A stretch of DNA of 64,000 nt from a phage. The stretch is taken from assembly GCA_036253495.1 (NCBI GenBank), contig GCA_036253495.1_4125.1. One strand, given 5' to 3'. The notes under the pieces were generated by a model. That model saw nothing but the letters and a program-made list of their open reading frames with translations. It did not search any database and was not told where the DNA came from. Of this stretch, positions 17,187-31,467 are shown one piece after another (position 1 is the first letter of the stretch; the number at the start of each line of letters is the position of its first letter). A program made the translations under genes and the position numbers.

Positions 17187-17191
17187 TAATT

Positions 17192-17220
17192 ATGCCCGAC
17201 TTTGTTCGGGCATCTTTTTA
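17192..17220 (+). terminator. rho-independent terminator
   Basis: Hairpin atgcccga/tcgggcat followed by CTTTTTA. Confidence 0.7.
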
Positions 17221-17231
17221 AGGAAAAGTAA

Positions 17232-17504
17232 ATGGACTATCGAGTACTGAATAGAACATATAAAGCTTTATACAAAACATATATTGAAAGTAAAGTACAT
17301 AATCCTATCATTTATAAAAATCCAGTTTATATTATATGGAATGAATATTTTACAATGATTCAAAATTACTTTTACTCTAACGAAATCTTTATAGATGGTG
17401 AAATGCGTAAGCTAACACGCGTTGATAGTATAGGTGGTGAAATTGTGTTATTCTATACTGATTCTATTATTGGACAACAATCTATAAATTTAGAGATATT
17501 ATAA
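17232..17504 (+). CDS. small protein, IG-motif paralog family
   Basis: 90 aa; N-terminal MDYRVLNRTYK and central SNEIFIDGE. Confidence 0.65.
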   Translation: MDYRVLNRTYKALYKTYIESKVHNPIIYKNPVYIIWNEYFTMIQNYFYSNEIFIDGEMRKLTRVDSIGGEIVLFYTDSIIGQQSINLEIL

Positions 17505-17770
17505 TGAATTATAAGGATTTACATTTCACCTATAAACTAACATTTTATATGTATCGTTATGCTGATAACAACTTCATGGATAATGCATTTTATCATCGTT
17601 TGTGGAGTGATTATATAAATTCTTTACGTGAACATTTTATAGGTACTATAATTCAATACGAAGGTAAAACAGTAAAAATATTTCAAGTTGATAGTTACAA
17701 CGGGGATCTATGCTTCAAGGGTAGAGATTCTAGTGATGGATTACATGAGATTTATATCTATGAATTATAA
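17504..17770 (+). CDS. small protein, IG-motif paralog family
   Basis: 88 aa; MNYKDLHFTYK...LREHFIGTII. Confidence 0.65.
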   Translation: MNYKDLHFTYKLTFYMYRYADNNFMDNAFYHRLWSDYINSLREHFIGTIIQYEGKTVKIFQVDSYNGDLCFKGRDSSDGLHEIYIYEL

Positions 17771-18035
17771 GGATTTACAATTCACGTACAAAATTCTTCA
17801 TGAACAATATGAACGTGGTGAAGGAATATTAACTTACGATGAACGAGATTTTTTTCTTACATTGTGGTGTGAATATTTGGCAATGATTAACGAGATTTTT
17901 GTTGATAAAGAATATATGATTGACGACATGACTGTACGTATTATCAGAATTAAAAGTTATAATGGAAGTCTTGTTGGAATTTACTATAACAATGAAAAGG
18001 CGAAAAGCGGATTTGTTGATTTGGAGTATCTATGA
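17760..18035 (+). CDS. small protein, IG-motif paralog family
   Basis: Track ORF 17688..18035 trimmed to the ATG giving MNYKDLQFTYK, matching paralog N termini. Confidence 0.65.
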   Translation: MNYKDLQFTYKILHEQYERGEGILTYDERDFFLTLWCEYLAMINEIFVDKEYMIDDMTVRIIRIKSYNGSLVGIYYNNEKAKSGFVDLEYL

Positions 18036-18295
18036 ACTATAATGATTTACAATTCACGTATCAACTTTTATATGATGATATGAATAACGAATTAGGTTTC
18101 TACTATGAAGTACGTAATAAAATATGGTCAAATTATCTATCTGAGATACAACATCATTTTATAGGACTTCCAATACGTAGAAATAATAAAAACTATCGTT
18201 GTACTGATGTAGTAAGTCATAGAGGTAGGTTGCGTTTAGAATTCTACCGCAGAGACGGGGACTTCATTGGTATAAATTTACTGGATTTTAAATGA
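18032..18295 (+). CDS. small protein, IG-motif paralog family
   Basis: 87 aa; MNYNDLQFTYQ...IQHHFIGLPI. Confidence 0.65.
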   Translation: MNYNDLQFTYQLLYDDMNNELGFYYEVRNKIWSNYLSEIQHHFIGLPIRRNNKNYRCTDVVSHRGRLRLEFYRRDGDFIGINLLDFK

Positions 18296-18358
18296 TGAAA
18301 AACAACTTAAAGGAAATACAAGTATTTTATAGATTCTTATACTTGTCATATGTAACAG

Positions 18359-18580
18359 ATGAGTACTATGAAAGTGTGTATTATTTTTTTATGGCAACAT
18401 TACCGTACTATAGTAAGAGATTTATATATAGGAAAATCTATCATATCCAATGGTGAAAAATGTACCTGTACAGATGTTGTTAGTTTTAATGGTTCTTTAA
18501 CACTGTGTTTCAGATGCGATAATAATAGTGGGTCATTTTCATTAAACGTATATCAGTTAGAAGGAATAAATTTTGAATAA
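18359..18580 (+). CDS. small protein, IG-motif paralog family
   Basis: 73 aa; RDLYIGKSII...CTCTDVVSFNGSL resembles neighbours. Confidence 0.55.
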   Translation: MSTMKVCIIFLWQHYRTIVRDLYIGKSIISNGEKCTCTDVVSFNGSLTLCFRCDNNSGSFSLNVYQLEGINFE

Positions 18581-18773
18581 GTGTCCATATTGTAACAGTA
18601 CTCAATTAGCTCGTTTCCGCTTAGATTCAGACTGGGCCACTGGTGCTGGGGATTTCTTTCCCATCAATGATGATGCGGAATACACTGAAGAACAGCACAA
18701 AGATTTTGATAAATCATGGCGACCTGACATTGAGTGCATTTATTGCCTTAATTGTGAGCGTGTACATGACTAA
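18573..18773 (+). CDS. small zinc-ribbon protein
   Basis: 66 aa; CPYCN ... CIYCLNC cysteine pairs. Confidence 0.55.
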   Translation: MNKCPYCNSTQLARFRLDSDWATGAGDFFPINDDAEYTEEQHKDFDKSWRPDIECIYCLNCERVHD

Positions 18774-19029
18774 AGCTGAACTAATAGTTCATACATATAA
18801 AATGATATACAGTACTGAGTTATCCTGTGGTGCAGATAATCCAGTACTGGACTATTTTATAGAATCTTTGAAAGAACATTATATTGGTAAATCACTGATT
18901 CTTAATAATATTAATTTCACTGTAAAGGATGTAGCACCTGGAAAAAACGTACTAATAGTATGTGTTACTTCATCTGATAACCCAGTATACCCAATAACAA
19001 TAATTTTTGAGGTATTAGGTGATTTATGA
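18766..19029 (+). CDS. small protein, IG-motif paralog family
   Basis: Track ORF 18643..19029 trimmed to ATG overlapping upstream stop; LKEHYIGKSLIL. Confidence 0.6.
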   Translation: MTKAELIVHTYKMIYSTELSCGADNPVLDYFIESLKEHYIGKSLILNNINFTVKDVAPGKNVLIVCVTSSDNPVYPITIIFEVLGDL

Positions 19030-19316
19030 ATATCATTTTAATACAGAAAACATATGCTATATTGGTGAAAGATTATTCCATTACATTCGATTCACAAGAA
19101 AGTGCTCTACATAACCTATACAAAAACGTAACACAAGAATACAGAAATATGTTTTCTGACTTAGTAGTAGGAAGATATTTCAGTACTAGAAAATATCCAA
19201 AACTTCAAGCAGAGGATGTTTCTTTTTATTTCAATGGTCATATTACTATTCATAGTTTAGACCAAAATTCACCAACGTACTTAAACTTTTCATTCGATGA
19301 GGTAACCTTTTTATGA
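19026..19316 (+). CDS. hypothetical protein
   Basis: ORF track; ATGA overlap. Confidence 0.6.
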   Translation: MNIILIQKTYAILVKDYSITFDSQESALHNLYKNVTQEYRNMFSDLVVGRYFSTRKYPKLQAEDVSFYFNGHITIHSLDQNSPTYLNFSFDEVTFL

Positions 19317-19495
19317 GAACATTATTTTTTATCTGGAGTCTTTTTTCTCTTGCAGTACTGACAGTTGCAGGTGCTTATTCATTTTTAACAATGAATACAT
19401 GGTATATCAATTTACTATTTCCAATTGTCGGTGTAGGTTTAGGATTTACTTTACATAGTGTATGTAAGGATTTCAATGACAAATCAAACAAATGA
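19313..19495 (+). CDS. small hydrophobic (membrane) protein
   Basis: 60 aa, two hydrophobic segments. Confidence 0.5.
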   Translation: MRTLFFIWSLFSLAVLTVAGAYSFLTMNTWYINLLFPIVGVGLGFTLHSVCKDFNDKSNK

Positions 19496-19760
19496 AGTAC
19501 TTATTGCTGAAACAATGAAGATGATTTATAGTATTACTACAGCACAGAATATGCCCTATCCCATTAAGTCTTTATTGAGGACCGTGTATCTTGTGACTGT
19601 GCAGGAATACTATAAATCCAAGCACAAAAGCATTATTAGTGTTTATCGTGATTATGAAAGGATTCGTATTTTGTACTGGAACAAGAACCGAGTACGTTCT
19701 GAATGTGACCTTGCGGACTTCAAATTAGAGAATCTTTATTGTTATAAAGCGGGACAGTAG
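19476..19760 (+). CDS. hypothetical protein
   Basis: Track ORF 19458..19760; start placed at internal ATG, uncertain. Confidence 0.5.
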   Translation: MTNQTNEVLIAETMKMIYSITTAQNMPYPIKSLLRTVYLVTVQEYYKSKHKSIISVYRDYERIRILYWNKNRVRSECDLADFKLENLYCYKAGQ

Positions 19761-19818
19761 TATAAGTAGTGATATAATTGTTGGTATGGAATAATAACTA
19801 ACACAAGGAGCGTGTAGA

Positions 19819-20547
19819 GTGATTGACCGTATCAGATTTGCCAGCGAGTTAGCAAACCAATTAAACATTGCAAATTTCCAAATGCTAACATCCGTAATGG
19901 CAGAACATGCAACTGCATATTCAGTAAGTGGTGTCCAATGCGGACAAGAGAATTTACTAGCTGATGTATACAGTGAAGTGCAAGGTAAACAATATTCAGT
20001 CAAAACATACAAGGATAAGTTTGTTAGTCTGTATATGAACGGCGATATTGAAGAAGAACGTAAGTTTACCGATTTTATTATTGAACGTCGTGTATCAGGT
20101 GTGTCAAACCCGAATGCTGCAAGTGATGTAGTATTTGATGAAGTACTGAAAGATATATACGAAAATGAAGCGAAAAGTAAGAATCATTACAATGTACGTG
20201 AAACTAACACAGTGCTCTTGGGATATGATGAAGACGAATTTTTCTATTATTTCCGTATAACTGAAGTACCTTTTGATTATAAAAAACCACATACCACATG
20301 TGCTCGTGAATTTACTGAAAAGAGTAAAAACTACAAAAAGCACGAAGGCAATCGTTGTAGTGTAAATGGTTATGATGAGAATGGTGTACACATTTATGAA
20401 TGGGTACATCCGAACTGTCAGACTTACACACGTTGCCTTAAAAAGAGATATAATTTAGAAGAACATGAGTCTTTCTACTTCAAAGTTAAGAAGCAAGATT
20501 ATAACAGACCAGACGATTCTGAATTACTTGGTATGATTTACTTCTAA
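19819..20547 (+). CDS. hypothetical protein (242 aa)
   Basis: ORF track; GTG start with AAGGAG RBS. Confidence 0.65.
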   Translation: MIDRIRFASELANQLNIANFQMLTSVMAEHATAYSVSGVQCGQENLLADVYSEVQGKQYSVKTYKDKFVSLYMNGDIEEERKFTDFIIERRVSGVSNPNAASDVVFDEVLKDIYENEAKSKNHYNVRETNTVLLGYDEDEFFYYFRITEVPFDYKKPHTTCAREFTEKSKNYKKHEGNRCSVNGYDENGVHIYEWVHPNCQTYTRCLKKRYNLEEHESFYFKVKKQDYNRPDDSELLGMIYF

Positions 20548-20555
20548 GGTAAGTT

Positions 20556-20834
20556 ATGAATTTACAAAGAGATGTGTGGACATATGAATATCTTTTAGAA
20601 CTTTATGGTGATATGTATATTAAAAATAAACCATACATAGACGATATAAGGGCTATGATAGATGATTTTTCTTCTGAGTTTATTCCACTTTATACTAATA
20701 AAGAAGTTACACATAAATCAATGAATAAATCAGGTATCATTGATGAAATTGATTTTGATACACATGGTGTGTATTTTTATATTATTTTCTCCAATGATAC
20801 TGTTGGTATATACACGTATAAAGAATTAAAATAA
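20556..20834 (+). CDS. hypothetical protein
   Basis: ORF track; terminator downstream. Confidence 0.65.
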   Translation: MNLQRDVWTYEYLLELYGDMYIKNKPYIDDIRAMIDDFSSEFIPLYTNKEVTHKSMNKSGIIDEIDFDTHGVYFYIIFSNDTVGIYTYKELK

Positions 20835-20839
20835 GTACA

Positions 20840-20867
20840 GGCCAGCATGGATTGCTGGTCTTTTTTG
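20840..20867 (+). terminator. rho-independent terminator
   Basis: Hairpin ccagca/tgctgg followed by TTTTTT. Confidence 0.6.
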
Positions 20868-20877
20868 TAGGTACATT

Positions 20878-21177
20878 ATGGACAAAATACAATTAGTTAG
20901 TAGTACTATAACAATGCTTGCTGATGTTGCCAGATGGAGCAGTGGTGGTTCCGTTAGTACTATGCTCGGTATACTCACGCAATACACCTATACATGCAAT
21001 GGAATGTTATATGGTAAGGAGGTTGAAATTGATGATCCCTATGGAATTCCCATATCATATGACCGAGGTGTAATAAAAAGGGTTACTCTGAGACTAACAT
21101 ATCATCCATATTTTGTAGTAGAACTTCCAGATGGAAAATTAAGAGAATATGTTGCTAAAAGGTTAAAACTAAAATGA
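20878..21177 (+). CDS. hypothetical protein
   Basis: ORF track. Confidence 0.65.
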   Translation: MDKIQLVSSTITMLADVARWSSGGSVSTMLGILTQYTYTCNGMLYGKEVEIDDPYGIPISYDRGVIKRVTLRLTYHPYFVVELPDGKLREYVAKRLKLK

Positions 21178-21752
21178 ATATTGTAGAATTAAGTACTAAG
21201 CTGATTACTATGCGTAACGAGTGGTACAATTGGTATTATAACGGTACTGACATGGATTTTTCAAAATATCCATTTATGGAATCAGGATGTGATTCAAGAT
21301 ACCGCTGGTTGAGTAAAGATGATTCTGGTTTACATATTCGAGTTGATGATAGTGGTCAGGGAATTATAAAAGATTTACTTCAAGTTGAAGAACTCGTCCA
21401 TGATGAGTGGTGTGATAATGATCCATACCTAGGAAATATAATTTATGTAACTGAAGATGATTGTATATTCGTCATTCAGCGTCATGGTGATTCTATGTTT
21501 TATATAGCAGACAGCAGTACACCTGAAGGTGCAGCATCAGATGGTCTTATTCCTAAGATTAATATATTAGATTTTGGCTTACCTGAGCACTTCCAGATGA
21601 GTACTCTATTCGATATTCCACCGTTTGAGTTCTTTGACGAATTTAAATTGTACTACAGTGATCTTCAGAAATTGAGTACAGAGAGTCGTATTGAAATAAC
21701 TGTCAGGTACATGGACGGGGCAAAATTAACCGACACGGGGATAGAATTTTGA
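21174..21752 (+). CDS. hypothetical protein, FQ-motif paralog family
   Basis: ORF track; motif PEHFQMSTL. Confidence 0.65.
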   Translation: MNIVELSTKLITMRNEWYNWYYNGTDMDFSKYPFMESGCDSRYRWLSKDDSGLHIRVDDSGQGIIKDLLQVEELVHDEWCDNDPYLGNIIYVTEDDCIFVIQRHGDSMFYIADSSTPEGAASDGLIPKINILDFGLPEHFQMSTLFDIPPFEFFDEFKLYYSDLQKLSTESRIEITVRYMDGAKLTDTGIEF

Positions 21753-22438
21753 TTAAAGATTTAGATAGAATTTTATATGTACTAAGGGGTGTAATTACTT
21801 TACAACCACAGATTAACCGCATGGAGAGAGCCTTTGAATTAAAATCAAGAGAAACTCCATATTCACATATATCAAATGTAGTTGGCTCATTCTGCTCTGA
21901 AGACTCTGCATATGATATATATGTGTGTGAAGTACAGCCCAGTAATGATCTTGGTTTTGCAATCTTCGATAAAAATCAAGTACTGGTCAGTATGTTTCAG
22001 TGCAATAATCCTTTCTGGAAAACATGCCTGTACCCTGATTGGGCTATGCTTGACCCTACGAAGAGTAAGATTAAAGTATATGACTCTAAGAATGAAGAAG
22101 TTGTTATTGATTTGGATGAATCAATGACAGAGGAAGAACACTTCCAGCTTATGATGATGCGTGCGATGCCAGACTATGAAGCAATGATTAACACAGTACA
22201 ATACATTAAGGATACGATGAGATCATTGTGTAATCATGAGTTTTGTCATCCAGTATCTTATGAACATTTGGATTTAGATTTCAGTACTATCAAGTTTAAA
22301 GATAGTGTTATTGAATATATCCAAGAGAACACTAAATTTGATTTTATTAGTACAATGACAAATAATCCAAATACTAATTTCAGGCATCAGTACAATGAAT
22401 CTTTGTCTAATGGTCGAGATACCAGTTGGTGGAAATAA
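21749..22438 (+). CDS. hypothetical protein, FQ-motif paralog family
   Basis: ORF track; motif TEEEHFQLMM. Confidence 0.65.
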   Translation: MIKDLDRILYVLRGVITLQPQINRMERAFELKSRETPYSHISNVVGSFCSEDSAYDIYVCEVQPSNDLGFAIFDKNQVLVSMFQCNNPFWKTCLYPDWAMLDPTKSKIKVYDSKNEEVVIDLDESMTEEEHFQLMMMRAMPDYEAMINTVQYIKDTMRSLCNHEFCHPVSYEHLDLDFSTIKFKDSVIEYIQENTKFDFISTMTNNPNTNFRHQYNESLSNGRDTSWWK

Positions 22439-22439
22439 T

Positions 22440-22703
22440 ATGAATATCCAAGATAGATTGCAATTGTTGCACACACTTGAAGAAGCTGCTTTTGAACTTG
22501 TTAATAAAATTGCACAAGAACTCCCAAAAGGAACCAACATTCGTGTTCGTGAAATGGATTATTTAACGGGAGAAATTGAAGAAAAAGTTCTAACAGTGAT
22601 CAAAGTAACATACTATGAATCAGAGTTATCAATTCAATGTAAGTCAGATAATGGTTACGTTTCCTACTATGGCACAGATGTAGATATAGAGGTAATTAGA
22701 TGA
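22440..22703 (+). CDS. hypothetical small protein
   Basis: Track ORF 22395..22703 trimmed to ATG just after upstream stop. Confidence 0.55.
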   Translation: MNIQDRLQLLHTLEEAAFELVNKIAQELPKGTNIRVREMDYLTGEIEEKVLTVIKVTYYESELSIQCKSDNGYVSYYGTDVDIEVIR

Positions 22704-23845: not shown

Positions 23846-23874
23846 TACTAACTAGCCCAGCACAAGGAGAAGTG

Positions 23875-24129
23875 ATGGCTAAACCTAAGTATAAAAATGA
23901 TGGTTCCCTTTCTCCTACTGAGTTCAGGAAAATACAACAAGAAATCGATGATTTACAGCACAAACGCTCAATGAAAGGTGTGAAGATTAGTAAGAAGCGA
24001 ATCGAGAATACTTTTGGGTGTAGTAGTACTGAATATAAGAAGAAAAGGAAACCAAAGGATGTTAAGCCGAGAATACATGATGTAACTCGCTATACATCAA
24101 AACGTGAAAATAAATTCGATCCACTATAA
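23875..24129 (+). CDS. small basic protein, hypothetical
   Basis: Track ORF trimmed to ATG with AAGGAGAAG RBS; Lys/Arg-rich. Confidence 0.6.
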   Translation: MAKPKYKNDGSLSPTEFRKIQQEIDDLQHKRSMKGVKISKKRIENTFGCSSTEYKKKRKPKDVKPRIHDVTRYTSKRENKFDPL

Positions 24130-24138
24130 GGAGTTCAT

Positions 24139-24375
24139 ATGAAAGTTGAAGTTCAGCATAGTATTGTTCAGGATATGTCAGTGGTTAAGTTTCTTTCTCT
24201 GAAAGATTACTTCAGATGTATCAAGTTCCTTGAAGAATCTCAATTACAGTGGACCCCCTTAAAGTACAGTTCATCCAATGACACTGCTAGTATTCGTTGT
24301 GATGAAGCTGTACTTGTAAAAATCTCCAAGCGATTTGGAGTTGGGAAATACAATGAAAAACAATCATTCAAGTGA
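24139..24375 (+). CDS. hypothetical protein
   Basis: ORF track. Confidence 0.6.
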   Translation: MKVEVQHSIVQDMSVVKFLSLKDYFRCIKFLEESQLQWTPLKYSSSNDTASIRCDEAVLVKISKRFGVGKYNEKQSFK

Positions 24376-24607
24376 TTTGTTATATTATAAAGTACTATCA
24401 GAATGTTTGACAGATGTATTGTACCGTGAGAGTAATACTCTACGTGCAAAATATATTAACAAAAGAGTACGTTATAAATCATCTTATGATGGGATGAATG
24501 TTTATGGTAAAATCACTAATGTATATGTAGATGATGATTTTACATTGAATATCACTGTCGATAATTGTATTGGTATCTCAATTGATGATATTATTGAGGT
24601 AATCTAA
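24353..24607 (+). CDS. small protein, IG-motif paralog family
   Basis: Track ORF 24335..24607 trimmed to internal ATG; LRAKYINKRVRY. Confidence 0.55.
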   Translation: MKNNHSSDLLYYKVLSECLTDVLYRESNTLRAKYINKRVRYKSSYDGMNVYGKITNVYVDDDFTLNITVDNCIGISIDDIIEVI

Positions 24608-24918
24608 TGAATAAAGCATTAAAAGAACTTCATAATTTAATGAATGCAGAAATTGAATTAACTAATACTATTTCTGAAATTGTTCATGATATGATTACAC
24701 AATACAAGAAATCACTCATTGGTAAGAAAGTTGAATGCTGGGATTACAACACTAAAACATGGTTCGAAACTATCATTAGTGATGTTAATGTTAAATTTCA
24801 TGTAGTTACTCATCACATTTCTGACGAGTGCTATGTAGAAGTAACTATAGGACACAACACGCGACATGAACGTTTTTCGTGGTACAATCTAAAGAATGTG
24901 AAATTTATTGAGGATTAA
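24607..24918 (+). CDS. small protein, IG-motif paralog family
   Basis: 103 aa; KKSLIGKKVEC. Confidence 0.6.
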   Translation: MNKALKELHNLMNAEIELTNTISEIVHDMITQYKKSLIGKKVECWDYNTKTWFETIISDVNVKFHVVTHHISDECYVEVTIGHNTRHERFSWYNLKNVKFIED

Positions 24919-25851
24919 ATGCCAACTATTACACTAACAGTTGGATTGCCAGGATGTGGTAAAACCACGTGGGCAGTGCAAGAAATTAAAAAAGCAAAGT
25001 CCAAGACTATCAACATCAACCGTGATGATATTCGAGAGTCTATGGCTGGGTCACATGATGCTTATAAATTCACTGATGCGAACGAGAAGTACGTAACTAA
25101 TCAACAGTTCAGTGCAGCAAACGCCGCAGCAGCGAATGGATGGAACATTATTGTGTCCGATACGAACCTGAAACAAGGTTTTCGTGATGAATGGAAACGT
25201 TGGGCTAAAGATAATGGCTACGACTACAAAGAAAAGAACTTCTACGAAGATTTTGTACCGAATGAAGACCGTGGTGCAGATGTTCATGAATTCTTTAAGA
25301 TTAAGGAATTCGTGAAGCTCTGTAAGAAACGCAACCTTCTTCGTGAGCGTTCAGTACAAGATGAAATCATTGACACTATGGCAGATACGTACTATTATAG
25401 TAAGGCGATGCACATTGGTTACTATGGTAATGCACGTGAAGCTGCTATCATTGTTGATATCGACGGTACTCTTGCTCATAAGTGGGGACGTAACCCGTTT
25501 GATGAAAGTACTGTCCTTCAGGATACACCAGATGAAGAAGTAATTCTGTCTGTCATTGCTGAGGCTGTTTTCCATAAGCGTAAGGTAATCGTCATGAGTG
25601 GGCGTACTGAAGGGTGTCGTGCTGATACTGAACAGTGGCTTAAGAATTGGGGCATTCCCTACGATGTATTGTTAATGCGAGCTATCGATGATAAACGTCC
25701 TGATGATGTTGTCAAATTCGAGTTGTATATGAATAACGTTGTTAATCATTACGATGTTAAGAAAGTATTTGATGACAGGGCCGCCGTTGTATTCATGTGG
25801 CGTAAGCTACTAGGCTTGAAAGTATTTCAGGTGGAACCTGGACTATTTTGA
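24919..25851 (+). CDS. pseT: polynucleotide 5-prime kinase / 3-prime phosphatase (T4 Pnk-like)
   Basis: 310 aa; N-terminal P-loop GLPGCGKTT; C-terminal HAD phosphatase motif IVDIDGTLA; colinear with T4 Pnk as recalled. Confidence 0.85.
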   Translation: MPTITLTVGLPGCGKTTWAVQEIKKAKSKTININRDDIRESMAGSHDAYKFTDANEKYVTNQQFSAANAAAANGWNIIVSDTNLKQGFRDEWKRWAKDNGYDYKEKNFYEDFVPNEDRGADVHEFFKIKEFVKLCKKRNLLRERSVQDEIIDTMADTYYYSKAMHIGYYGNAREAAIIVDIDGTLAHKWGRNPFDESTVLQDTPDEEVILSVIAEAVFHKRKVIVMSGRTEGCRADTEQWLKNWGIPYDVLLMRAIDDKRPDDVVKFELYMNNVVNHYDVKKVFDDRAAVVFMWRKLLGLKVFQVEPGLF

Positions 25852-25857
25852 TTATTA

Positions 25858-25892
25858 CAAAGGGATCAGTACTGATCCCTTTTCTTTTAATT
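25858..25892 (+). terminator. rho-independent terminator built on a perfect 20 nt palindrome
   Basis: agggatcagtactgatccct (perfect inverted repeat with CAGTACTG core and two GATC sites) followed by a T-rich tract. Confidence 0.7.
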
Positions 25893-25903
25893 TAGGTGAT
25901 ATA

Positions 25904-26164
25904 ATGGATAATAGTTATGATGTACATTTCAAACAATGCCAGTTGGTTTTACACTCCCTAATGGAAGAGTTGCGAATCAAGTACATAGGCAAAATTGCTA
26001 CATGTTTATCAACTGGAAGACGTGGGCAAATTGTAGAGATTTATTATTCTCCACTTAGTGATGAAATTAAAATAAAAGCTAAAATATTCCTAACTGGATC
26101 TAACAATTTCTTGGGTGAACATATGGTAAAAATTATCTCTGAATTATCGATAACGGATGAATAA
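25904..26164 (+). CDS. small protein, IG-motif paralog family
   Basis: 86 aa; LRIKYIGKIATC. Confidence 0.65.
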   Translation: MDNSYDVHFKQCQLVLHSLMEELRIKYIGKIATCLSTGRRGQIVEIYYSPLSDEIKIKAKIFLTGSNNFLGEHMVKIISELSITDE

Positions 26165-26166
26165 AC

Positions 26167-26433
26167 ATGGATATTAATAAAGATTTTAGATTTATCAATT
26201 CGCATATACAAGTACTGAAAACATTAGTAAAACAAGTATCAGAAAAATACACAGGAACTTATGTTAGATGTGCTTTTGATGCAAATGACTGGCAACGAAT
26301 TATAAAAATAGATTCAGTTTATCTTGATACAAATAATAGTATTACAGTTTCAGGTATTGATATGTATGGTCATCGATATCAATTTACTACAAGAGCCACA
26401 ATAACTACAGTGGATGGATATGAATACGAATGA
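26167..26433 (+). CDS. small protein, IG-motif paralog family
   Basis: 88 aa; VSEKYTGTYVRC. Confidence 0.65.
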   Translation: MDINKDFRFINSHIQVLKTLVKQVSEKYTGTYVRCAFDANDWQRIIKIDSVYLDTNNSITVSGIDMYGHRYQFTTRATITTVDGYEYE

Positions 26434-26719
26434 ATTCCAAGCATTATTGAAAACATTATATCTTCTTAAAGAAGAATCTCTTGCAATGTATAATGAAAAA
26501 CAATACAAGTTTGAAGAACAACTCATTCATTTTCATGATGAATATCTTGACTTTTTGAATAAAAAATACTCAAATGTTCAGTGCAAATATCGAGGTAGTG
26601 ATGTTATTATTACCGAAATCGAATCCAGTACTTACGGATATCCATACCTTTGTTGCAAATATATCCCAAGTAATATAACATTTCGCTCAAGAATGTATTC
26701 GAGGTTTATTTTTTCATGA
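26414..26719 (+). CDS. small protein, probable family member
   Basis: 101 aa; ORF track. Confidence 0.6.
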   Translation: MDMNTNEFQALLKTLYLLKEESLAMYNEKQYKFEEQLIHFHDEYLDFLNKKYSNVQCKYRGSDVIITEIESSTYGYPYLCCKYIPSNITFRSRMYSRFIFS

Positions 26720-26997
26720 ATAATGATTCATTGAAGTTTTTTTATTATCATTATCGTATTTTACGTAGTTTATATTTTTCAGAATCCGATGAAAGATTAC
26801 TAACATCATTATCAGTACTGATGGATAATTACGAGAACGAATTATCAAAAGTGGTTTTTGGTGTCAATGTTCTAGATGATACCGATTTAACATGGACAAT
26901 TATTGAAGTGGCGACCTGGAATGGTAATATTTTGTACAGGTGCGAACGAGCAGGTTTTTTATGGGATGCAACATATGACGAGATTAGAATTGTATGA
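26716..26997 (+). CDS. small protein, probable family member
   Basis: 93 aa; ATGA overlap. Confidence 0.6.
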   Translation: MNNDSLKFFYYHYRILRSLYFSESDERLLTSLSVLMDNYENELSKVVFGVNVLDDTDLTWTIIEVATWNGNILYRCERAGFLWDATYDEIRIV

Positions 26998-27274
26998 CAG
27001 GCAAGTGAAATTGATAAGAGATACTCGTCGTTTCTTTCATACTCAATTAGTAGACCCATGTTATGATATTTCCGATTTCCTTGAAACCTATCTCCTTGAT
27101 CTAACTACACCACTGCTTAAAAAATACGTAGGAACAAAAGCTATATATCTTGGAAGAGAAGTTGAAATTACCAACATATCATATTCTTATGGGGCATACA
27201 TGTATACGGCAAAATCTGATAATGGACAAAGATATTATGCAATACGATCAAGAGAACTTACTATTATTGGATAG
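26975..27274 (+). CDS. small protein, IG-motif paralog family
   Basis: Track ORF 26903..27274 trimmed to internal ATG; LKKYVGTKAIYLGREVEI. Confidence 0.55.
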   Translation: MTRLELYDRQVKLIRDTRRFFHTQLVDPCYDISDFLETYLLDLTTPLLKKYVGTKAIYLGREVEITNISYSYGAYMYTAKSDNGQRYYAIRSRELTIIG

Positions 27275-27302
27275 GCATCTTGCTATTCTTATCGACCTTG
27301 TG

Positions 27303-27566
27303 ATGGAAAGTGATGTAAAAATTTTTGAAAGTAGATTTCTTGAGGATTATAAAACTGAATTGCAAGAACTGTACAAAGGTAAAAAAGTATTACTTAGTAC
27401 TGGTGACTATGGTAAAATTGAGTACGTGTATTATGAATGGAAAAAGGTTATATATTTTATAAAAACCAAAATAAAATACCAAAATAAAACAAGAACCTAT
27501 AAAGCATATTACGATTCAAATGAGATAGAGATTATATATGACCAACACGTTAATAACAAAAAGTGA
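27303..27566 (+). CDS. small protein, IG-motif paralog family
   Basis: Track ORF 27150..27566 trimmed to first ATG after upstream stop; ELYKGKKVLL; start uncertain. Confidence 0.5.
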   Translation: MESDVKIFESRFLEDYKTELQELYKGKKVLLSTGDYGKIEYVYYEWKKVIYFIKTKIKYQNKTRTYKAYYDSNEIEIIYDQHVNNKK

Positions 27567-27861
27567 ATTAGATTATTTGAATTATATAAACAGATACTTT
27601 CTGATTCTATATAATATACTTCTTGAAGAACAATGCACTAAATCAAACCATCAGTTATATAACTATATTAACTGTATAATTAGTGAAATATATGAATCAT
27701 TGGAAAAGAGATTTAAGTACAGAACTATTAAGTGCGAAGATGATATTGTATATATTCATGGTGTTTTTGGTACAGGATATGGAATATTCGTTGATTATAA
27801 AATACACCCATTTGATCCGTACATAGAAAATAGTATGTACATAGAAGAGATTGAACTATGA
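27538..27861 (+). CDS. hypothetical small protein
   Basis: ORF track. Confidence 0.6.
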   Translation: MTNTLITKSELDYLNYINRYFLILYNILLEEQCTKSNHQLYNYINCIISEIYESLEKRFKYRTIKCEDDIVYIHGVFGTGYGIFVDYKIHPFDPYIENSMYIEEIEL

Positions 27862-28175
27862 CACAAGAAGAATATAATAAATTAATAATGTACGAGAATC
27901 ATTTTAATTATTGTCTGAAATGGTTATTGTACATTGATAACGTTGAGATGGATATGTACAGAAAAGAGGTGAATAAACGTGTTAAAGATTTCTATTACGA
28001 ATTGACTGATCTTTTTTATAATAATGTAGTATATGAAGCAAATACCAGTCGTGATTATGACCTTTATATCAAGCAAATATGGGGTACTGACTACGGTCTG
28101 ATGATTGATTGCAGTACTGATGTTAATACAGACAGACCCAGTACTACATTGTATCTGGATGAGATTTTCATATGA
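27858..28175 (+). CDS. hypothetical small protein
   Basis: ORF track; ATGA overlap. Confidence 0.6.
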   Translation: MTQEEYNKLIMYENHFNYCLKWLLYIDNVEMDMYRKEVNKRVKDFYYELTDLFYNNVVYEANTSRDYDLYIKQIWGTDYGLMIDCSTDVNTDRPSTTLYLDEIFI

Positions 28176-28474
28176 ATGAACTATTACTTTGTCATAAAAC
28201 ATACATTATGCTATTCAGAACGTGCCATGATATGCGAATTGAGGGGATACTAGACTACCCAACTATGATGATTAACTTCAGGGTGTTAATGGATTCATAT
28301 TCACAATCTGTTATTGATGCATTTGAAGGTAGAGAAATAAAGTTCAAAAATGCCAGGACAAATAATGAGCTATGTGATACAATTAAATCAGTGGGGATTT
28401 CGGTTCCAAATGTGTACGTAATCCCATTGATGTACGGAAAAGTAGTATCCACTAACGAAATTATTAGTATATGA
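28172..28474 (+). CDS. hypothetical small protein
   Basis: ORF track. Confidence 0.6.
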   Translation: MNELLLCHKTYIMLFRTCHDMRIEGILDYPTMMINFRVLMDSYSQSVIDAFEGREIKFKNARTNNELCDTIKSVGISVPNVYVIPLMYGKVVSTNEIISI

Positions 28475-28770
28475 TTAAAACATTATATGAAGCAGAAGAA
28501 ACATATAAACTTCTGTGGGAAACTTTTATTTTTGACAAATACTATAATAGAACTGAATGGTTAGAGGTAAGTAAAATATATCTTCAAATTTTAAATGATT
28601 ATTTTTGTCCGTTCGTTGCTGAATGTAAAAATAATCCAATTGAAGAAATTAATATAATCGAAATAGTAGATGGGTTTGGTGCGTGGTTGATATACCAAGA
28701 CAACTATCACTTTTCTAATTATATCGAAGATATCGGTAAAATAATTGTAATTAAAGGAGTCATACTATGA
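28471..28770 (+). CDS. hypothetical small protein
   Basis: ORF track. Confidence 0.6.
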   Translation: MIKTLYEAEETYKLLWETFIFDKYYNRTEWLEVSKIYLQILNDYFCPFVAECKNNPIEEINIIEIVDGFGAWLIYQDNYHFSNYIEDIGKIIVIKGVIL

Positions 28771-29384
28771 TTTATGCACTATACGTACTATACGTACTTG
28801 GTCTGGTTATTGGTTGGTTTTTGGCAAAATCTTACAACCGTAATGCACTGGCATACACAGTATTTGGTATTATTTTTACGCCAGTACTAGAACTAGGTTT
28901 ACTAATTATTATGGGTCGCCGTGACATGACACCAGTCATTGACGATAATCGTGATAAAGCAGTACATGATGTACCAGTTTTTGAAGGATATACGCCAACT
29001 TTAACTGTTGATGACGTTTACATTGATGGTGCTGCTGAAGAAGTTAAATCAGTTCAGGAAGAAGTTGAAGAAGTTCCAGTAAAAGAAGAACCACAACCAA
29101 AAGCATCAACAACTAAAACAAAAGCAAAAACTTCTAAGAAAACAAAAGGTCGCAAGACTAGCACTAAAAATACCAAAAAAACCAGTACAACTCGCAAAAG
29201 CACTAAAACTGATAAGGAAGCATCTTCCAGTACTACCAGTACTGATGATGGTACAAGCACTGTTCTACTGACAGCAGCAACAACTGCCGCAATTATCAGT
29301 ACTTCATCCTATAGCGACTCATCTTCCTCTTATGACAGTGGCTCTTGTGATAGTTCAAGCTCAAGTTCAGGAAGCTGTGATTAA
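28767..29384 (+). CDS. membrane-anchored protein with Lys/Thr/Ser-rich low-complexity tail
   Basis: 205 aa; two N-terminal hydrophobic helices, acidic linker, then KASTTKTKAKTSKKTKGRKTSTKNTKK... and Ser/Cys-rich C terminus. Confidence 0.6.
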   Translation: MIYALYVLYVLGLVIGWFLAKSYNRNALAYTVFGIIFTPVLELGLLIIMGRRDMTPVIDDNRDKAVHDVPVFEGYTPTLTVDDVYIDGAAEEVKSVQEEVEEVPVKEEPQPKASTTKTKAKTSKKTKGRKTSTKNTKKTSTTRKSTKTDKEASSSTTSTDDGTSTVLLTAATTAAIISTSSYSDSSSSYDSGSCDSSSSSSGSCD

Positions 29385-29728
29385 TGGTTCCGTTATCATC
29401 TGAACTAAGGTACTTCGAATCTCTCCTTGATCTTCAATCAGAATTCGTTAGTACCTTAAAAAATAAATTAATAGGCAAAAAAGTAAAATTCACTCAAGAG
29501 TATATTGACCACATCAATAAGGCTAAGGAGGATGAAGTAGATTCTGACTGGATTTATTGTGATGATGAAGCTTCTCATATCAACGAAAATACAGTTATGT
29601 TTATTACTTTGTTGCGAGTAAAGAATTCATCAATCTATGTTGATGTTGAATATGAAAATCCAAAAAGTTCTGAATGGTACGGATTCACTTACCGTTTAGA
29701 TCGTTTAGAACTAATAGAAGAGGAATAA
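29384..29728 (+). CDS. small protein, IG-motif paralog family
   Basis: 114 aa; LKNKLIGKKVKF. Confidence 0.6.
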   Translation: MVPLSSELRYFESLLDLQSEFVSTLKNKLIGKKVKFTQEYIDHINKAKEDEVDSDWIYCDDEASHINENTVMFITLLRVKNSSIYVDVEYENPKSSEWYGFTYRLDRLELIEEE

Positions 29729-29971
29729 ATGATTTTATTTTTTGCTTTGTATGGTGTAGGAGTACTGAGTACATTTATCAGTACTTTTCTTATCATCAAT
29801 TGGGGTTCTTTTAAAGATACCCCTACCACAATGATTAATATTAGTACCTGCTCTATGTTATCAGTACTGTGGCCTGTGTCGTTGGTGTATCTTTTCATTT
29901 CAATCTGTAAAGATTTTTACGATACACTAACAAAATTCAAGAAGAAGAAACATGACAAAGACGGAAATTGA
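29729..29971 (+). CDS. small membrane protein
   Basis: 80 aa; two hydrophobic segments. Confidence 0.55.
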   Translation: MILFFALYGVGVLSTFISTFLIINWGSFKDTPTTMINISTCSMLSVLWPVSLVYLFISICKDFYDTLTKFKKKKHDKDGN

Positions 29972-30206
29972 ACAGTTAAAGATGTTACAATCGTTATCTG
30001 ATGATTTTGTCCAACGTGCTAAGCACAAATATATTGGTCAAGAAATTCTTCTTAAACACTCCAGAGGTTGGCAAAAAATATGCATAAGAGATATGGGAAC
30101 ATATTATGGTGATGTGCGATATTACGTAGATTGCTATGTTAATGACCAAATTGCCAATACTCAAGTTGTCACCTATGATAAAATTATATGGATTAAAGAA
30201 CAATGA
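29952..30206 (+). CDS. small protein, IG-motif paralog family
   Basis: 84 aa; AKHKYIGQEILL. Confidence 0.6.
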   Translation: MTKTEIEQLKMLQSLSDDFVQRAKHKYIGQEILLKHSRGWQKICIRDMGTYYGDVRYYVDCYVNDQIANTQVVTYDKIIWIKEQ

Positions 30207-30946
30207 AACATTTCTTAGAAGTAACAGTTCCTGATGAAAAAGATTTGTATATAGTAGGAGACATTCACGGTAATGCAAAACTATGGGAACATACCAAGAA
30301 AGAATTTGGTATTACTCCTGAAGATTATGTATTCAGTTTAGGCGATTTAATTGACAGAGGTGAGCAAAGTGCTCACCTTTTGTTTGAGTTTTTATTCGCT
30401 GAGAATCGATATATGATCATGGGCAATCATGAATCGATGTGTATTGATTCTGCAACTCATCGTGACTGGTATCATTGCTGGACACAGAATGGGGGCGATA
30501 AGTTCCTGGAAGAAGTTGGTGTATCAGGAGTGGAATTCTTCCGTCAGTACTTGAACCAGCTACCTATGATTATCCAAATCAATCACAGAGGACTCAAGAT
30601 TGGCCTCGTACATGCAAGTGTAGACCTTAAGCACACTGACTGGAATAAGTTCATTACTGGGACAAAATCAATGTCCAGTGATACAATTGAGTCATGCCTA
30701 TGGGACAGAAAGACATTTGATTTCTGTAAAGCTAACAACGTCTTTAATGCACCACGTATTGCTAACGTCGATTACGTTCTTAGTGGTCATACCGCTGTGT
30801 TTGATCCCCTAATTTATGGAAACCGTATCTGGATTGACAGTCAGTTCCTTACTGGTGATTTGACTATTGCTACCCCACAAGGTGGTAAGATGCGTTATTT
30901 GCGTAAAGAAAAAGACGAATATTCATTCAGTCGATTCAAAAGGTAA
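30203..30946 (+). CDS. serine/threonine protein phosphatase (PPP-family metallophosphatase)
   Basis: 247 aa; motifs GDIHGN, GDLIDRG, GNHE. Confidence 0.85.
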   Translation: MKHFLEVTVPDEKDLYIVGDIHGNAKLWEHTKKEFGITPEDYVFSLGDLIDRGEQSAHLLFEFLFAENRYMIMGNHESMCIDSATHRDWYHCWTQNGGDKFLEEVGVSGVEFFRQYLNQLPMIIQINHRGLKIGLVHASVDLKHTDWNKFITGTKSMSSDTIESCLWDRKTFDFCKANNVFNAPRIANVDYVLSGHTAVFDPLIYGNRIWIDSQFLTGDLTIATPQGGKMRYLRKEKDEYSFSRFKR

Positions 30947-30951
30947 TTATT

Positions 30952-31230
30952 ATGCATGACATGATTGATAGTGCATTAACCGAATTTAACTTTTTTAAAA
31001 AATCACTCGATACAATAATCAATGATACCAACCAACAAATGAAAGACCATTTAAGTGATAAATTGGTTGGTCGTTGGGTTGAGCTACCATATATAGATGG
31101 AACTACTGTTGGTGTGATTCATAGAATTGTAACAATTCATGAAGTGAAGGTGTATGTTGAAATTTTGGTTGACAATGAAACTAACAAATGTTTTGTACAA
31201 TTAAGCACTGAAGATTTAACTTTTTTATAA
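30952..31230 (+). CDS. small protein, IG-motif paralog family
   Basis: 92 aa; LSDKLVGRWVEL. Confidence 0.6.
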   Translation: MHDMIDSALTEFNFFKKSLDTIINDTNQQMKDHLSDKLVGRWVELPYIDGTTVGVIHRIVTIHEVKVYVEILVDNETNKCFVQLSTEDLTFL

Positions 31231-31239
31231 GGATATAAA

Positions 31240-31467
31240 ATGAAAGTAATTTATGTTCAGGTTGAAAAATATCAAACTGAAGATGGTCGCATTTTTGATT
31301 CAGCTAAACAAGCTGAGCATCATGAACGTATTATTTCTGGTGTTCGTCGCATTTGTCCTAAATGTAACGGAACACAACAAGTTCCCGATGAAGAATTTCG
31401 TCGCTATTATGCATGTCCAGATTGTGATGGTAAAGGATATGTAGAAAAACAAGAGGTATGGAAGTGA
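31240..31467 (+). CDS. small DnaJ-type zinc-finger protein
   Basis: 75 aa; two CxxCxGxG repeats (CPKCNGTQ, CPDCDGKG). Confidence 0.6.
   Translation: MKVIYVQVEKYQTEDGRIFDSAKQAEHHERIISGVRRICPKCNGTQQVPDEEFRRYYACPDCDGKGYVEKQEVWK

What the first reader, a model, noticed from the sequence alone, without database searches (positions are those of the whole stretch)
17232..31230. Expanded superfamily of ~85-115 aa proteins with a central K-(Y/H)-I-G-K-x-V motif, more than 20 tandem members
Many small ORFs between 17.2-19.0 kb and 24.3-31.2 kb share the same layout: a variable N-terminal helix-like segment ending in a basic/aromatic-Ile/Val-Gly motif (LRIKYIGKIATC, LKEHYIGKSLIL, AKHKYIGQEILL, LKNKLIGKKVKF, KKSLIGKKVEC, LKKYVGTKAIYLG, ELYKGKKVLL, LREHFIGTII, IQHHFIGLPI), then a short beta-rich C terminus. 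A subgroup at 17504-18295 also shares an almost identical N terminus MNY(K/N)DL(Q/H)FTY. The genes are tandem, co-directional and linked by ATGA-type overlaps. Such diversified arrays of small early proteins are typical of host-takeover or anti-defence loci, but this family has no function I can assign.
Basis: partly seen in the sequence, partly recalled or inferred. Interest (0 to 1): 0.7.

Follow-up and report, generated by a model that had tools for sequence, protein, structure and literature searches.

The report
Tandem small helix-plus-barrel phage proteins
A giant E. coli phage carries 15 to about 24 diverged tandem copies of a small protein, an N-terminal helix joined to a Tudor/SH3-like mini-barrel. 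The copies vary sharply between sister phages and their function is unknown, most plausibly binding host proteins.

Summary
The window is an Asteriusvirus (RaK2-like jumbo coliphage), 98.4% identical to Escherichia phage A4. The small co-directional, overlap-linked genes and the K-[YL]-[IV]-G-K-x-V motif are real and far above chance.

"More than 20 members of one superfamily" is only partly shown:
- 15 genes form one decoy-free network in iterated profile searches.
- One further gene pair joins by profile-profile comparison.
- About 7 more score above every control but below formal significance.
- 19476, 20878, 23875 and 24139 do not belong.

No Pfam, NCBIfam or PDB sequence match exists. The family is confined to Asteriusvirus and Alcyoneusvirus.

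Members are 29-43% identical, or absent, between sister phages whose core genes are 83-97% identical. They are still under purifying selection (pN/pS about 0.2-0.27). They are mostly acidic, absent from the phAPEC6 virion proteome, and have no late promoters nearby.

Best reading: a fast-diversifying repertoire of intracellular binder proteins for host takeover or counter-defence. The function is inferred, not shown.

The parts
17232..17504 (+). Cluster A member (90 aa)
   Evidence: Pairwise phmmer E 1e-8 to 17760. Iterated HMM with no decoys. phrog_32291.
17504..17770 (+). Cluster A member (88 aa), motif EHFIGTII, N-terminus MNYKDLHFTYK
   Evidence: PSSM p=0.002.
17760..18035 (+). Cluster A member (91 aa), N-terminus MNYKDLQFTYK
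   Evidence: Its profile recruits 26420 at 2e-14.
18032..18295 (+). Cluster A member (87 aa), motif HHFIGLPI; this is the modelled protein
18292..18580 (+). Cluster A member split into two ORFs (18292-18456 and 18359-18580) by one extra T in a T-run near 18384-18390; motif DLYIGKSI
   Evidence: DNA alignment with A4 and 121Q, where the 94-aa gene is intact. HMM hits for both halves.
18766..19029 (+). Cluster A member (87 aa), motif EHYIGKSL; this gene bridges to cluster B
   Evidence: The 25904 profile hits it at 1e-7. hhalign score to the cluster B profile is 23.7.
19026..19316 (+). Divergent cluster A member (96 aa)
   Evidence: Recruited by the 17232 profile at 1e-21. hhalign to A3 gives 98% probability over 86 columns.
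20556..20834 (+). Twilight candidate (92 aa), PLYTNKEV at the motif position
   Evidence: hhalign to A2 scores 24.0, against a shuffled-null maximum of 15.8 and a real-protein null maximum of 11.7. Recruited at 5e-4 in the small pool only and lost in the larger pool.
22440..22703 (+). Marginal candidate (87 aa)
   Evidence: Profile hhalign to A2 scores 20.4, but the single sequence scores only 13.5.
24353..24607 (+). Cluster B member (84 aa), motif AKYINKRV
   Evidence: Recruited by the 29384 profile at 1e-13. hhalign to A2 gives 96-98% probability.
24607..24918 (+). Cluster B member (103 aa), motif KSLIGKKV
   Evidence: Iterated HMM links it to 29384, 29952 and 30952 at 1e-17 to 1e-22.
25904..26164 (+). 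Cluster B member (86 aa), motif IKYIGKIA; its profile links clusters A and B
   Evidence: hits 24607 at 5e-20, 29952 at 2e-17 and 18766 at 1e-7.
26167..26433 (+). Cluster B member (88 aa), motif EKYTGTYV; a diverged allele relative to A4
   Evidence: links it to 29952 (1e-17 from its own profile, 5e-20 from the 29952 profile). 82% nt identity to A4 among neighbours at 98-100%; pS 0.51, pN 0.093.
26420..26719 (+). Divergent member (99 aa) related to cluster A
   Evidence: Hit by the 17760 profile at 2e-14. hhalign to A3 scores 24-28 over 64-66 columns.
26716..26997 (+). Twilight candidate (93 aa), KVVFGVNV
   Evidence: hhalign scores 18.0 to A2 and 20.9 to A3 over 68 columns, above all nulls.
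26966..27274 (+). Twilight candidate (about 100 aa), motif KKYVGTKA; not annotated in A4
   Evidence: hhalign to A2 scores 20.3, aligned on the motif columns. PSSM p=0.027. A4 leaves a gap in annotation at L001 12997-13237.
27237..27566 (+). Twilight candidate (109 aa), motif ELYKGKKV
   Evidence: hhalign to A2 scores 24.2-24.4. PSSM p=0.0003. Only relatives at 86-97% identity exist in 5.8 billion proteins.
27538..27861 (+). Cluster C member (107 aa), paralogue of 27858
   Evidence: Pair hhalign gives 94.5% probability. Profile to A3 gives 94% (score 42.7, 65 columns) and to A2 73%.
27858..28175 (+). Cluster C member (105 aa)
   Evidence: Iterated HMM to 27538 at 1e-33 to 1e-36. hhalign to A2 scores 18.1.
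28172..28474 (+). Marginal candidate (100 aa), DAFEGREI
   Evidence: hhalign scores 15.4 to each profile. This is above the real-protein null (13.7) but within the shuffled null.
28471..28770 (+). Twilight candidate (99 aa)
   Evidence: hhalign to A3 scores 18.1-19.9 over 45-85 columns.
29384..29728 (+). Cluster B member (114 aa) with an insertion in the β part, motif NKLIGKKV
   Evidence: hhalign to A2 gives 99% probability. PSSM p=0.0002.
29952..30206 (+). Cluster B member (84 aa), motif HKYIGQEI; this is the second modelled protein
30952..31230 (+). Cluster B member (92 aa), motif DKLVGRWV
   Evidence: Hit by the 24607 profile at 4e-17. hhalign to A2 gives 97-98% probability.
17192..17213 (+). 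Terminator-like hairpin just upstream of the first family gene
   Evidence: Similar sites at 20839-20861 and 25859-25882 divide the region into long polycistronic blocks.

Best explanation
SHOWN:
- The region holds a lineage-specific multigene family of small soluble proteins (84-114 aa) in a RaK2-like jumbo coliphage.
- The family arose by tandem duplication and has diverged heavily.
- Each protein has an N-terminal helix (cluster B) or helical hairpin (cluster A). A Gly turn follows, then a 4-5-stranded Tudor/SH3-like small β-barrel.
- The K-[YL]-[IV]-G-K-x-[VI] motif is structural. It forms the C-cap of the helix, the Gly turn and the first barrel strand.
- Conserved positions are mainly core hydrophobics and turn glycines, so the surfaces are free to vary.
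- The genes sit in polycistronic, overlap-coupled blocks interleaved with conserved RNA-repair and nucleotide genes (RnlA, PseT, NinI-like phosphatase).
- They are replaced or diverged between sister phages, yet remain under purifying selection.

INFERRED:
- They are non-virion, non-enzymatic proteins made before late gene expression.
- Each acts by stoichiometric binding to a host protein, or possibly a phage protein.
- Together they form a diversifying repertoire for host takeover or counter-defence.
- The host RNA polymerase β lobe is one concrete candidate target. It is the target of the structurally closest domains: CarD, Mfd and the UvrD/PcrA Tudor domains.
For: Family and motif:
- Pairwise and iterated profile links with no decoys recruited.
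- hhalign scores above both shuffled and real-protein nulls.
- An independent PSSM gives 15 of 33 small genes at p<0.05.
- Codons at the motif vary synonymously.

Fold:
- AlphaFold2 pLDDT 87.7 for 18032-18295, and the same order of elements in 29952-30206.
- The conserved columns are core hydrophobics plus G45 and G65.

Restricted distribution:
- 23 and 7 hits in 5.8 billion proteins.
- 12 small representatives in 1.84 billion.
- Present in Asteriusvirus (13-16 copies) and RaK2 (5 or more). None detected in GAP32, CBB, XbC2 or Yen9-04.

Hypervariability:
- Members are 29-43% identical to 121Q or have no match, while core genes are 83-97% identical.
- The 25.9-28.8 kb block matches only phage A4 among 50,697 phage records.
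- 26167 has undergone a gene-sized allelic replacement relative to A4.

Functional constraint: pN/pS is 0.21-0.27, against 0.08 for core genes.

Not structural or late:
- None of phAPEC6 gp358c-gp392c is among the 62 virion proteins (PMC7247149 Table 1).
- There is no TATAAATA in 15-32 kb.

Charge: pI is mostly 4.4-6.7, which argues against generic nucleic-acid binding.
Against: - No experiment or transcriptome exists for any Asteriusvirus, so timing and targets are unknown.
- Cluster A against cluster B as whole profiles is weak (P about 0.01). One origin for all members is therefore not proven.
- The cluster B model has low confidence (pLDDT 65.8; residues 54-71 are below 50).
- No CarD_TRCF Pfam match appears even at E<=0.1.
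- In phage CBB the proposed early host-takeover region is a different part of the genome.
- The catalogue of 268 anti-defence proteins does not mention SH3, Tudor or barrel folds.
Confidence: 0.5

Rival explanations
1. There is no single family. Two or three unrelated small-protein families (cluster A, cluster B, cluster C) and several orphan genes merely converge on a generic helix-then-β layout. The h-G-K-x-V element would then be a common way to start a small β-barrel.
For: - The direct A3 against A2 profile comparison gives only 4% probability, P=0.0097, over 25 columns.
- PHROGs, which is built by remote-homology clustering, keeps the genes in 17 separate families.
- The twilight members never reach formal significance.
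- YajC, CarD and KOW-type barrels also begin with h-G-D/K-x-V (one weak YajC hit, E 0.035; the rest from general knowledge).
Against: - Bridging hits recruit no decoys: the 25904 profile hits 18766 at 1e-7, 17760 hits 26420 at 2e-14, 27538 matches A3 at 94% probability, and 29952 matches A3 at 57%.
- The A/B alignment is in register at the motif.
- All candidates lie in the same arrays of the same phage lineage.
- None of 21 small ORFs elsewhere in the window scores above 13.7.
Confidence: 0.22
2. The proteins are specifically RNA-polymerase binders. They would mimic the CarD, Mfd or UvrD Tudor-like RNA-polymerase-interacting domain and dock on the β lobe to redirect or shut off host transcription.
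For: - Mfd and CdnL also appear for the second model.
- These phages use the host RNAP with phage sigma factors (PMC7247149; PMC5259590).
Against: - There is no sequence similarity to PF02559.
- The fold is generic.
- Fifteen or more divergent paralogues are unlikely to share one conserved target.
- No interaction data exist.
Confidence: 0.12
3. The proteins are Sm/Hfq-like or otherwise RNA-binding accessory factors of the adjacent RnlA/PseT tRNA-repair module.
For: - The genes are interleaved with RnlA (22700-23845) and PseT (24919-25851).
- An N-terminal helix followed by five bent strands is the Sm layout.
Against: - There is no LSM or Hfq Pfam match.
- Most members are acidic, pI 4.4-6.7.
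- RnlA and PseT are conserved across all RaK2-like genera, but the family is absent from GAP32, CBB, XbC2 and Yen9-04.
Confidence: 0.06
4. The genes are functionless or nearly neutral duplicates that persist in a large, tolerant genome, or they are minor virion or assembly components.
For: - Turnover between strains is extreme.
- One copy carries a frameshift.
- Selection is about three times more relaxed than on core genes.
Against: - pN/pS of 0.21-0.27 indicates purifying selection. The diverged 26167 allele has pS 0.51 against pN 0.09.
- The core fold residues are maintained.
- The proteins are absent from the phAPEC6 virion proteome.
Confidence: 0.08

Closest known systems
CarD_CdnL_TRCF RNA-polymerase-interacting domain (Pfam PF02559) and the UvrD/PcrA C-terminal Tudor domains
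   Different: - There is no detectable sequence similarity.
- The helical module is N-terminal and packs on the barrel, whereas CarD has a C-terminal helical domain.
- These are stand-alone proteins of 85-115 aa in multi-copy arrays.
- RNAP binding has not been tested.
Generic SH3-like small β-barrel proteins (SH3, Tudor, chromo, KOW, Sm/LSm/Hfq, YajC)
   Same: A barrel of four or five short antiparallel strands. The Sm fold and YajC also place a helix directly before the barrel. Such domains appear throughout the hit lists of both models, and a KOW-domain protein of Serratia phage PS2 appears in BFVD, the viral predicted-structure library.
   Different: No family signature (Sm1/Sm2, KOW, YajC) is matched at the Pfam thresholds. 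One YajC hit at E 0.035 is below its cut-off.
PHROG families phrog_32291, phrog_21004 and about 15 others, all of unknown function
   Same: These are the same proteins, already clustered from public Asteriusvirus genomes. Five window genes fall in phrog_32291 and two in phrog_21004.
   Different: PHROGs treats them as unrelated families with no fold or function. Here they are linked into one network of 15-17 members and given a fold.
Arrays of small overlap-coupled accessory ORFs in T4-like phages and hypervariable accessory hotspots of phage genomes
   Same: Co-directional small genes with ATGA overlaps lie between conserved enzymes such as pseT and rnlA. Content differs from strain to strain. 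Such hotspots are enriched for defence and counter-defence genes (abstract of 10.1101/2024.10.15.618418; the T4 comparison is from general knowledge).
   Different: Here most occupants of the hotspot are paralogues of one fold family rather than unrelated genes.

Membership tests
Window helix + barrel family (clusters A/B/C) | Significant sequence or profile similarity among members | tested here: met
   Met for 15 genes by iterated HMM with no decoys, and for 27538/27858 by hhalign at 94% probability. About 7 further genes are only above the nulls.
Window helix + barrel family (clusters A/B/C) | Central K-[YL]-[IV]-G-K-x-[VI] motif at the helix to strand-1 junction | tested here: met
   A PSSM trained on other phages gives 15 of 33 small genes at p<0.05 with central positions. 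Both AlphaFold2 models place the motif at the end of the helix and the first strand.
Window helix + barrel family (clusters A/B/C) | Common origin of cluster A and cluster B | tested here: inconclusive
   The whole-profile comparison gives P=0.0097. Individual bridges are stronger, at 1e-7 and at 57-94% probability.
CarD_CdnL_TRCF interacting domain (PF02559) | Match to the family HMM | tested here: not met
   No Pfam family was hit by more than one of the 27 proteins at E<=0.1, and PF02559 was not among the hits. The PDB profile search found no CarD or Mfd.
CarD_CdnL_TRCF interacting domain (PF02559) | Tudor-like β-barrel fold | tested here: met
CarD_CdnL_TRCF interacting domain (PF02559) | Binding to the RNA polymerase β lobe | not testable with these tools
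   This needs pull-down or two-hybrid experiments, or complex prediction.
Sm/LSm/Hfq | Sm1/Sm2 sequence motifs or a family HMM match | tested here: not met
   No LSM or Hfq Pfam hit.
Sm/LSm/Hfq | N-terminal helix followed by a five-stranded bent sheet | tested here: inconclusive
Virion structural proteins | Detected in purified particles, or preceded by a late promoter | tested here: not met
   The syntenic phAPEC6 genes gp358c-392c are absent from the 62-protein virion proteome. There is no TATAAATA in 15-32 kb. This is indirect, because it concerns a sister phage.
Early host-takeover or anti-defence genes | Early transcription from host-type promoters | tested here: inconclusive
   Sigma-70-like sites are not enriched, 88 against 94.9 +/- 9.6. 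No Asteriusvirus transcriptome was found.
Early host-takeover or anti-defence genes | Similarity to a known anti-defence protein, or inhibition of a defence system | not testable with these tools
   No anti-defence library is available here. The EVADES catalogue text mentions no SH3, Tudor or barrel fold.
Early host-takeover or anti-defence genes | Hypervariable accessory-island behaviour between close relatives | tested here: met
   Members are 29-43% identical or absent, against 83-97% for core genes. The 25.9-28.8 kb block is found only in A4.

The most novel reading that the evidence does not exclude
The arrays are a phage-encoded, rapidly diversifying library of Tudor-like mini-binders. 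The paralogues share a scaffold. Cluster A also shares a conserved polar helix-1 patch, N/K4-D5-Q7-T9-K11. Each paralogue would neutralise a different host protein: RNA polymerase β-lobe partners such as Mfd or UvrD, or components of anti-phage defence systems. Gene-sized allele swapping between co-infecting jumbo phages would keep the set current. This would be a new structural class of anti-defence or host-takeover proteins.
Probability: 0.15. Interest if true: 0.7.

Novelty: new variant of a known kind. Interest (0 to 1): 0.42.

Why it matters
About 80% of jumbo-phage genes have no known function. Here a block of roughly 20 hypothetical genes reduces to one recognisable scaffold: a helix plus a Tudor/SH3-like barrel. 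That scaffold has been duplicated, diversified and swapped between sister phages.

This gives a tractable experimental set. The proteins are small, soluble and easy to express, so they suit searches for host targets or defence-system inhibitors. It also gives a concrete first hypothesis to test, namely binding to the RNA polymerase β lobe. If the members do bind different host factors, the family would be a new class of phage modulators and a natural source of compact binder domains.

Tried and rejected
- Pfam, NCBIfam and PDB sequence or profile searches found nothing usable.
- An HMM built from the window alone finds no member beyond the six cluster A genes, even at E<=10. Homologues from related phages were needed.
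- The full-sensitivity search of 1.84 billion representatives returned three large proteins (4419, 1808 and 917 aa). Pfam shows these are repeat or low-complexity proteins such as DUF11, with scores summed over several stretches. I rejected them as spurious.
- I considered that the motif might be a DNA element, such as an internal -10-like TATA box or a recombination site. I rejected this because the codons vary synonymously.
- The T4-type late promoter TATAAATA is absent from the region.
- The sigma-70 scan shows no enrichment.
- The direct hhalign of cluster A against cluster B is weak.
- A search for relatives of 27237 to deepen its profile found only proteins at 86-97% identity.
- Literature: no Asteriusvirus transcriptome, no phage Tudor-like RNAP binder, and no barrel fold mentioned in the anti-defence catalogue.
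- Phage CMSTMSU (L016) has fragmented ORFs and added little.

Full report
**Origin of the window.** Positions 17000-31500 are 98.4% identical over their full length to Escherichia phage A4, an Asteriusvirus. Asteriusviruses are RaK2-like jumbo myoviruses of about 355 kb. Other Asteriusviruses match only about half of this stretch, at roughly 86% identity. In A4 every small gene here is annotated "hypothetical protein". The named genes are Dam, a cytidylyltransferase, RnlA (window 22700-23845), PseT polynucleotide kinase/phosphatase (24919-25851), a NinI-like phosphatase (30203-30946) and a DnaJ-like zinc-finger protein. The whole stretch is coded on the + strand at 29-36% G+C.

**Checking the observation.**
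- All quoted motif strings exist at the stated genes.
- Gene junctions are mostly 4-nt ATGA overlaps (14 cases) or TAATG overlaps.
- The shared MNY(K/N)DL(Q/H)FTY start of 17504, 17760 and 18032 is real. It is also visible as a 49-nt DNA repeat, 69-84% identical.
- A strict motif regex occurs in 8 small genes, against 0.085 expected after shuffling. It occurs nowhere else in the window except once in PseT.
- That regex was written after seeing the data, so I built an independent test. An 18-residue PSSM was trained only on sequences from 121Q, JNE01 and RaK2. Fifteen of the 33 small window proteins score at p<0.05, where 1.65 are expected. Nine exceed the best score of all 85 + strand ORFs outside the region.
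- Codons at the motif vary synonymously (TAT/TAC, ATA/ATT, GGT/GGA/GGC), so the conservation is in the protein and not in a DNA element.

**How many genes are related.**
- Pairwise phmmer links only six genes, all within 17232-19029. An HMM iterated inside the window adds nothing.
- I then pooled ORFs from the syntenic regions of 17 related loci: A4, 121Q, JNE01, RaK2, GAP32, CBB, Hallingskeid, XbC2, Yen9-04, phAPEC6, JP4, EC.P1, CMSTMSU, KP13-7 and three metagenomic contigs. Shuffled and reversed decoys were added.
- Iterated searches recruited no decoy. They joined 15 genes into one component: 17232, 17504, 17760, 18032, 18292/18359, 18766, 19026, 24353, 24607, 25904, 26167, 26420, 29384, 29952 and 30952.
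- The link between the upstream cluster (A) and the clusters around PseT (B) rests mainly on the 25904 profile hitting 18766 at 1e-7.
- 27538 and 27858 are a clear pair. The 27538 profile matches the cluster A profile at 94% hhalign probability and the cluster B profile at 73%.
- Against the two family profiles, column-shuffled controls never exceed 15.8 and 19.1. Twenty-one genuine small ORFs from elsewhere in the window never exceed 11.7 and 13.7.
- Against those controls, 20556, 26716, 26966, 27237 and 28471 score 18-24. Gene 22440 reaches 20.4 only as a profile, and 28172 is marginal at 15.4. Their alignments are anchored on the motif columns.
- 19476, 20878, 23875, 24139, the zinc-ribbon gene 18573, the membrane proteins 19313 and 29729, and 31240 behave as non-members.
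- A direct comparison of the cluster A and cluster B profiles is weak: P=0.0097 over 25 columns, though in register at the motif.
- The defensible count is therefore 15-17 robust members and up to about 24 if the twilight candidates are accepted. "More than 20" is plausible but not demonstrated.

**Fold.**
- With 24 sequences, AlphaFold2 gives 18032-18295 a confident model (pLDDT 87.7, pTM 0.72). It has two helices (3-18 and 25-43) and then strands at 47-50, 53-63, 66-72 and 78-82.
- The motif HHFIGLPI spans the last turn of helix 2, the Gly turn and strand 1.
- The cluster B protein 29952-30206 gives a weaker model (pLDDT 65.8). The order of elements is the same: one long helix (3-27) and then five strands, with KYIGQEI again at the junction.
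- In BFVD, the library of predicted viral protein structures, the significant matches are Asteriusvirus proteins. RaK2 proteins follow at TM 0.5-0.6. None has a known function.
- In 42 distinct cluster A sequences the most conserved columns are core hydrophobics, the invariant G65 of a β-hairpin and the turn position G/D/N45. There is also a polar N-terminal patch: K/N4, D5, Q7, T9 and K11.

**Distribution and evolution.**
- Profile searches of 5.8 billion proteins return 23 (cluster A) and 7 (cluster B) proteins. All are 83-134 aa, carry no Pfam domain, and come from E. coli-associated contigs of up to about 359 kb or from named Asteriusviruses.
- A full HMMER scan of 1.84 billion representatives returns 12 small proteins plus three spurious repeat proteins.
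- Copy number by the strict criterion is 16 ORFs in the window (15 genes, since one is split), 16 in A4, 13 in 121Q, 13 in JNE01 and 5 in RaK2, which has about five more twilight candidates. It is zero in GAP32, CBB, XbC2 and Yen9-04.
- Between this phage and 121Q, core proteins are 83-97% identical. Most family members are 29-43% identical or have no match.
- The ten-gene block at 25.9-28.8 kb has DNA similarity only to A4 among 50,697 phage records.
- Against A4 the family shows pN/pS of 0.21-0.27, compared with 0.08 for core genes. The genes are therefore constrained, but more loosely.
- Gene 26167-26433 is only 82% identical in DNA to A4, while its neighbours are 98-100% identical. Its pS is 0.51 and pN 0.09, which looks like a gene-sized allelic replacement.

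**Clues to role.**
- The proteins are mostly acidic or neutral, pI 4.4-6.7.
- None of the syntenic phAPEC6 genes (gp358c-392c) is among the 62 virion proteins found by mass spectrometry (PMC7247149 Table 1).
- No T4-type late promoter lies in 15-32 kb.
- Terminator-like hairpins at 17192, 20839 and 25859 divide the region into long polycistronic blocks shared with RnlA and PseT.
- Sigma-70-like sites are not enriched.
- No Asteriusvirus transcriptome was found.
- In the relative CBB, the authors place the presumed early region elsewhere in the genome (PMC5259590). "Early" therefore remains unproven.

**Interpretation.**
- The structural and evolutionary picture is well supported. This is a lineage-specific, tandemly amplified and rapidly diversifying family of stand-alone proteins, each a helix plus a Tudor/SH3-like barrel. 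The noticed motif is the structural hinge between the two modules.
- The function is inferred. A non-enzymatic fold, a conserved core with variable surfaces, acidic charge, absence from virions and accessory-island behaviour all point to stoichiometric binders of host proteins, or possibly phage proteins, used for takeover or counter-defence.
- The similarity to the CarD, Mfd and UvrD RNA-polymerase-interacting domains gives one testable target, the β lobe. The fold is too common for this to count as more than a lead.
- These proteins are not members of PF02559 by sequence.

**Novelty.** The proteins are already in public databases as hypothetical proteins and as PHROGs of unknown function. 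The new points are their unification into one network, the fold assignment, the structural meaning of the motif and the measured hypervariability. I rate this a new variant of a known kind (small β-barrel binder domains in phage accessory hotspots), of moderate interest.

Noticed in passing
window 18292-18580 (T-run at about 18384-18390): One family gene is split into two ORFs by a single extra T (T7 here, T6 in A4 and 121Q, where the 94-aa gene is intact). This is either a homopolymer sequencing error or a real frameshift pseudogene.
   Followed up: partly
window 26167-26433 and 19313-19495: These two genes are 82% and 88% identical in DNA to phage A4, while their neighbours are 98-100% identical. 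Synonymous changes dominate (pS 0.51 against pN 0.09 for 26167). This looks like gene-sized allelic replacement by recombination between related phages.
   Followed up: partly
window 23875-24129 and 24139-24375: Two small proteins between RnlA and PseT are conserved in almost every RaK2-like genus examined, at 58-71% amino-acid identity. The exception is 23875, which has no match in RaK2. This contrasts with the variable family around them. 23875 is very basic (pI 10.1, net charge +13). They may be conserved partners of the RNA-repair enzymes.
   Followed up: partly
window 26966-27274 (A4 locus L001 about 12966-13274): This motif-bearing ORF (KKYVGTKA) overlaps both neighbours and is not annotated in phage A4, which has a gap between A4_436 and A4_437. 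Substitutions against A4 are compatible with coding (Sd 3, Nd 2). It is probably a missed gene.
   Followed up: partly
window 18573-18773: A 66-aa protein with a CxxC...CxxC zinc-ribbon pattern sits inside the cluster A array. It is conserved in JNE01 (83%) and RaK2 (70%) but was not found in A4 or 121Q by BLASTP. That is probably because my ORF extraction requires ATG and this gene starts with TTG.
   Followed up: no
window 28767-29384: A 205-aa protein with N-terminal transmembrane helices and a long Ser/Thr/Lys-rich low-complexity tail ending in an SSSSSGSCD-type repeat. It differs from A4 by indels (12 gap positions).
   Followed up: no
window 16527-17186: A protein with an extreme poly-Asp C-terminus (…DDDDGEIYIELDDDDDDDE) lies immediately upstream of the array. 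A strong terminator-like hairpin follows at 17192-17213.
   Followed up: no
window 22700-23845, 24919-25851, 30203-30946: RnlA, PseT and a NinI-like phosphatase are conserved across all RaK2-like genera. The phAPEC6 authors suggest that RnlA and PseT counter the Prr anticodon-nuclease abortive-infection system (PMC7247149). The variable family therefore sits inside a region already tied to counter-defence.
   Followed up: no
cluster A proteins, residues 3-11 (for example window 18038-18064): The most conserved segment of cluster A is the polar N-terminal helix-1 stretch YKDLQFTYK, with T9, Y10, K11, D5 and Q7 conserved. It is not the barrel. This could be a shared interaction patch, or a constraint from translational coupling at the gene starts.
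   Followed up: no
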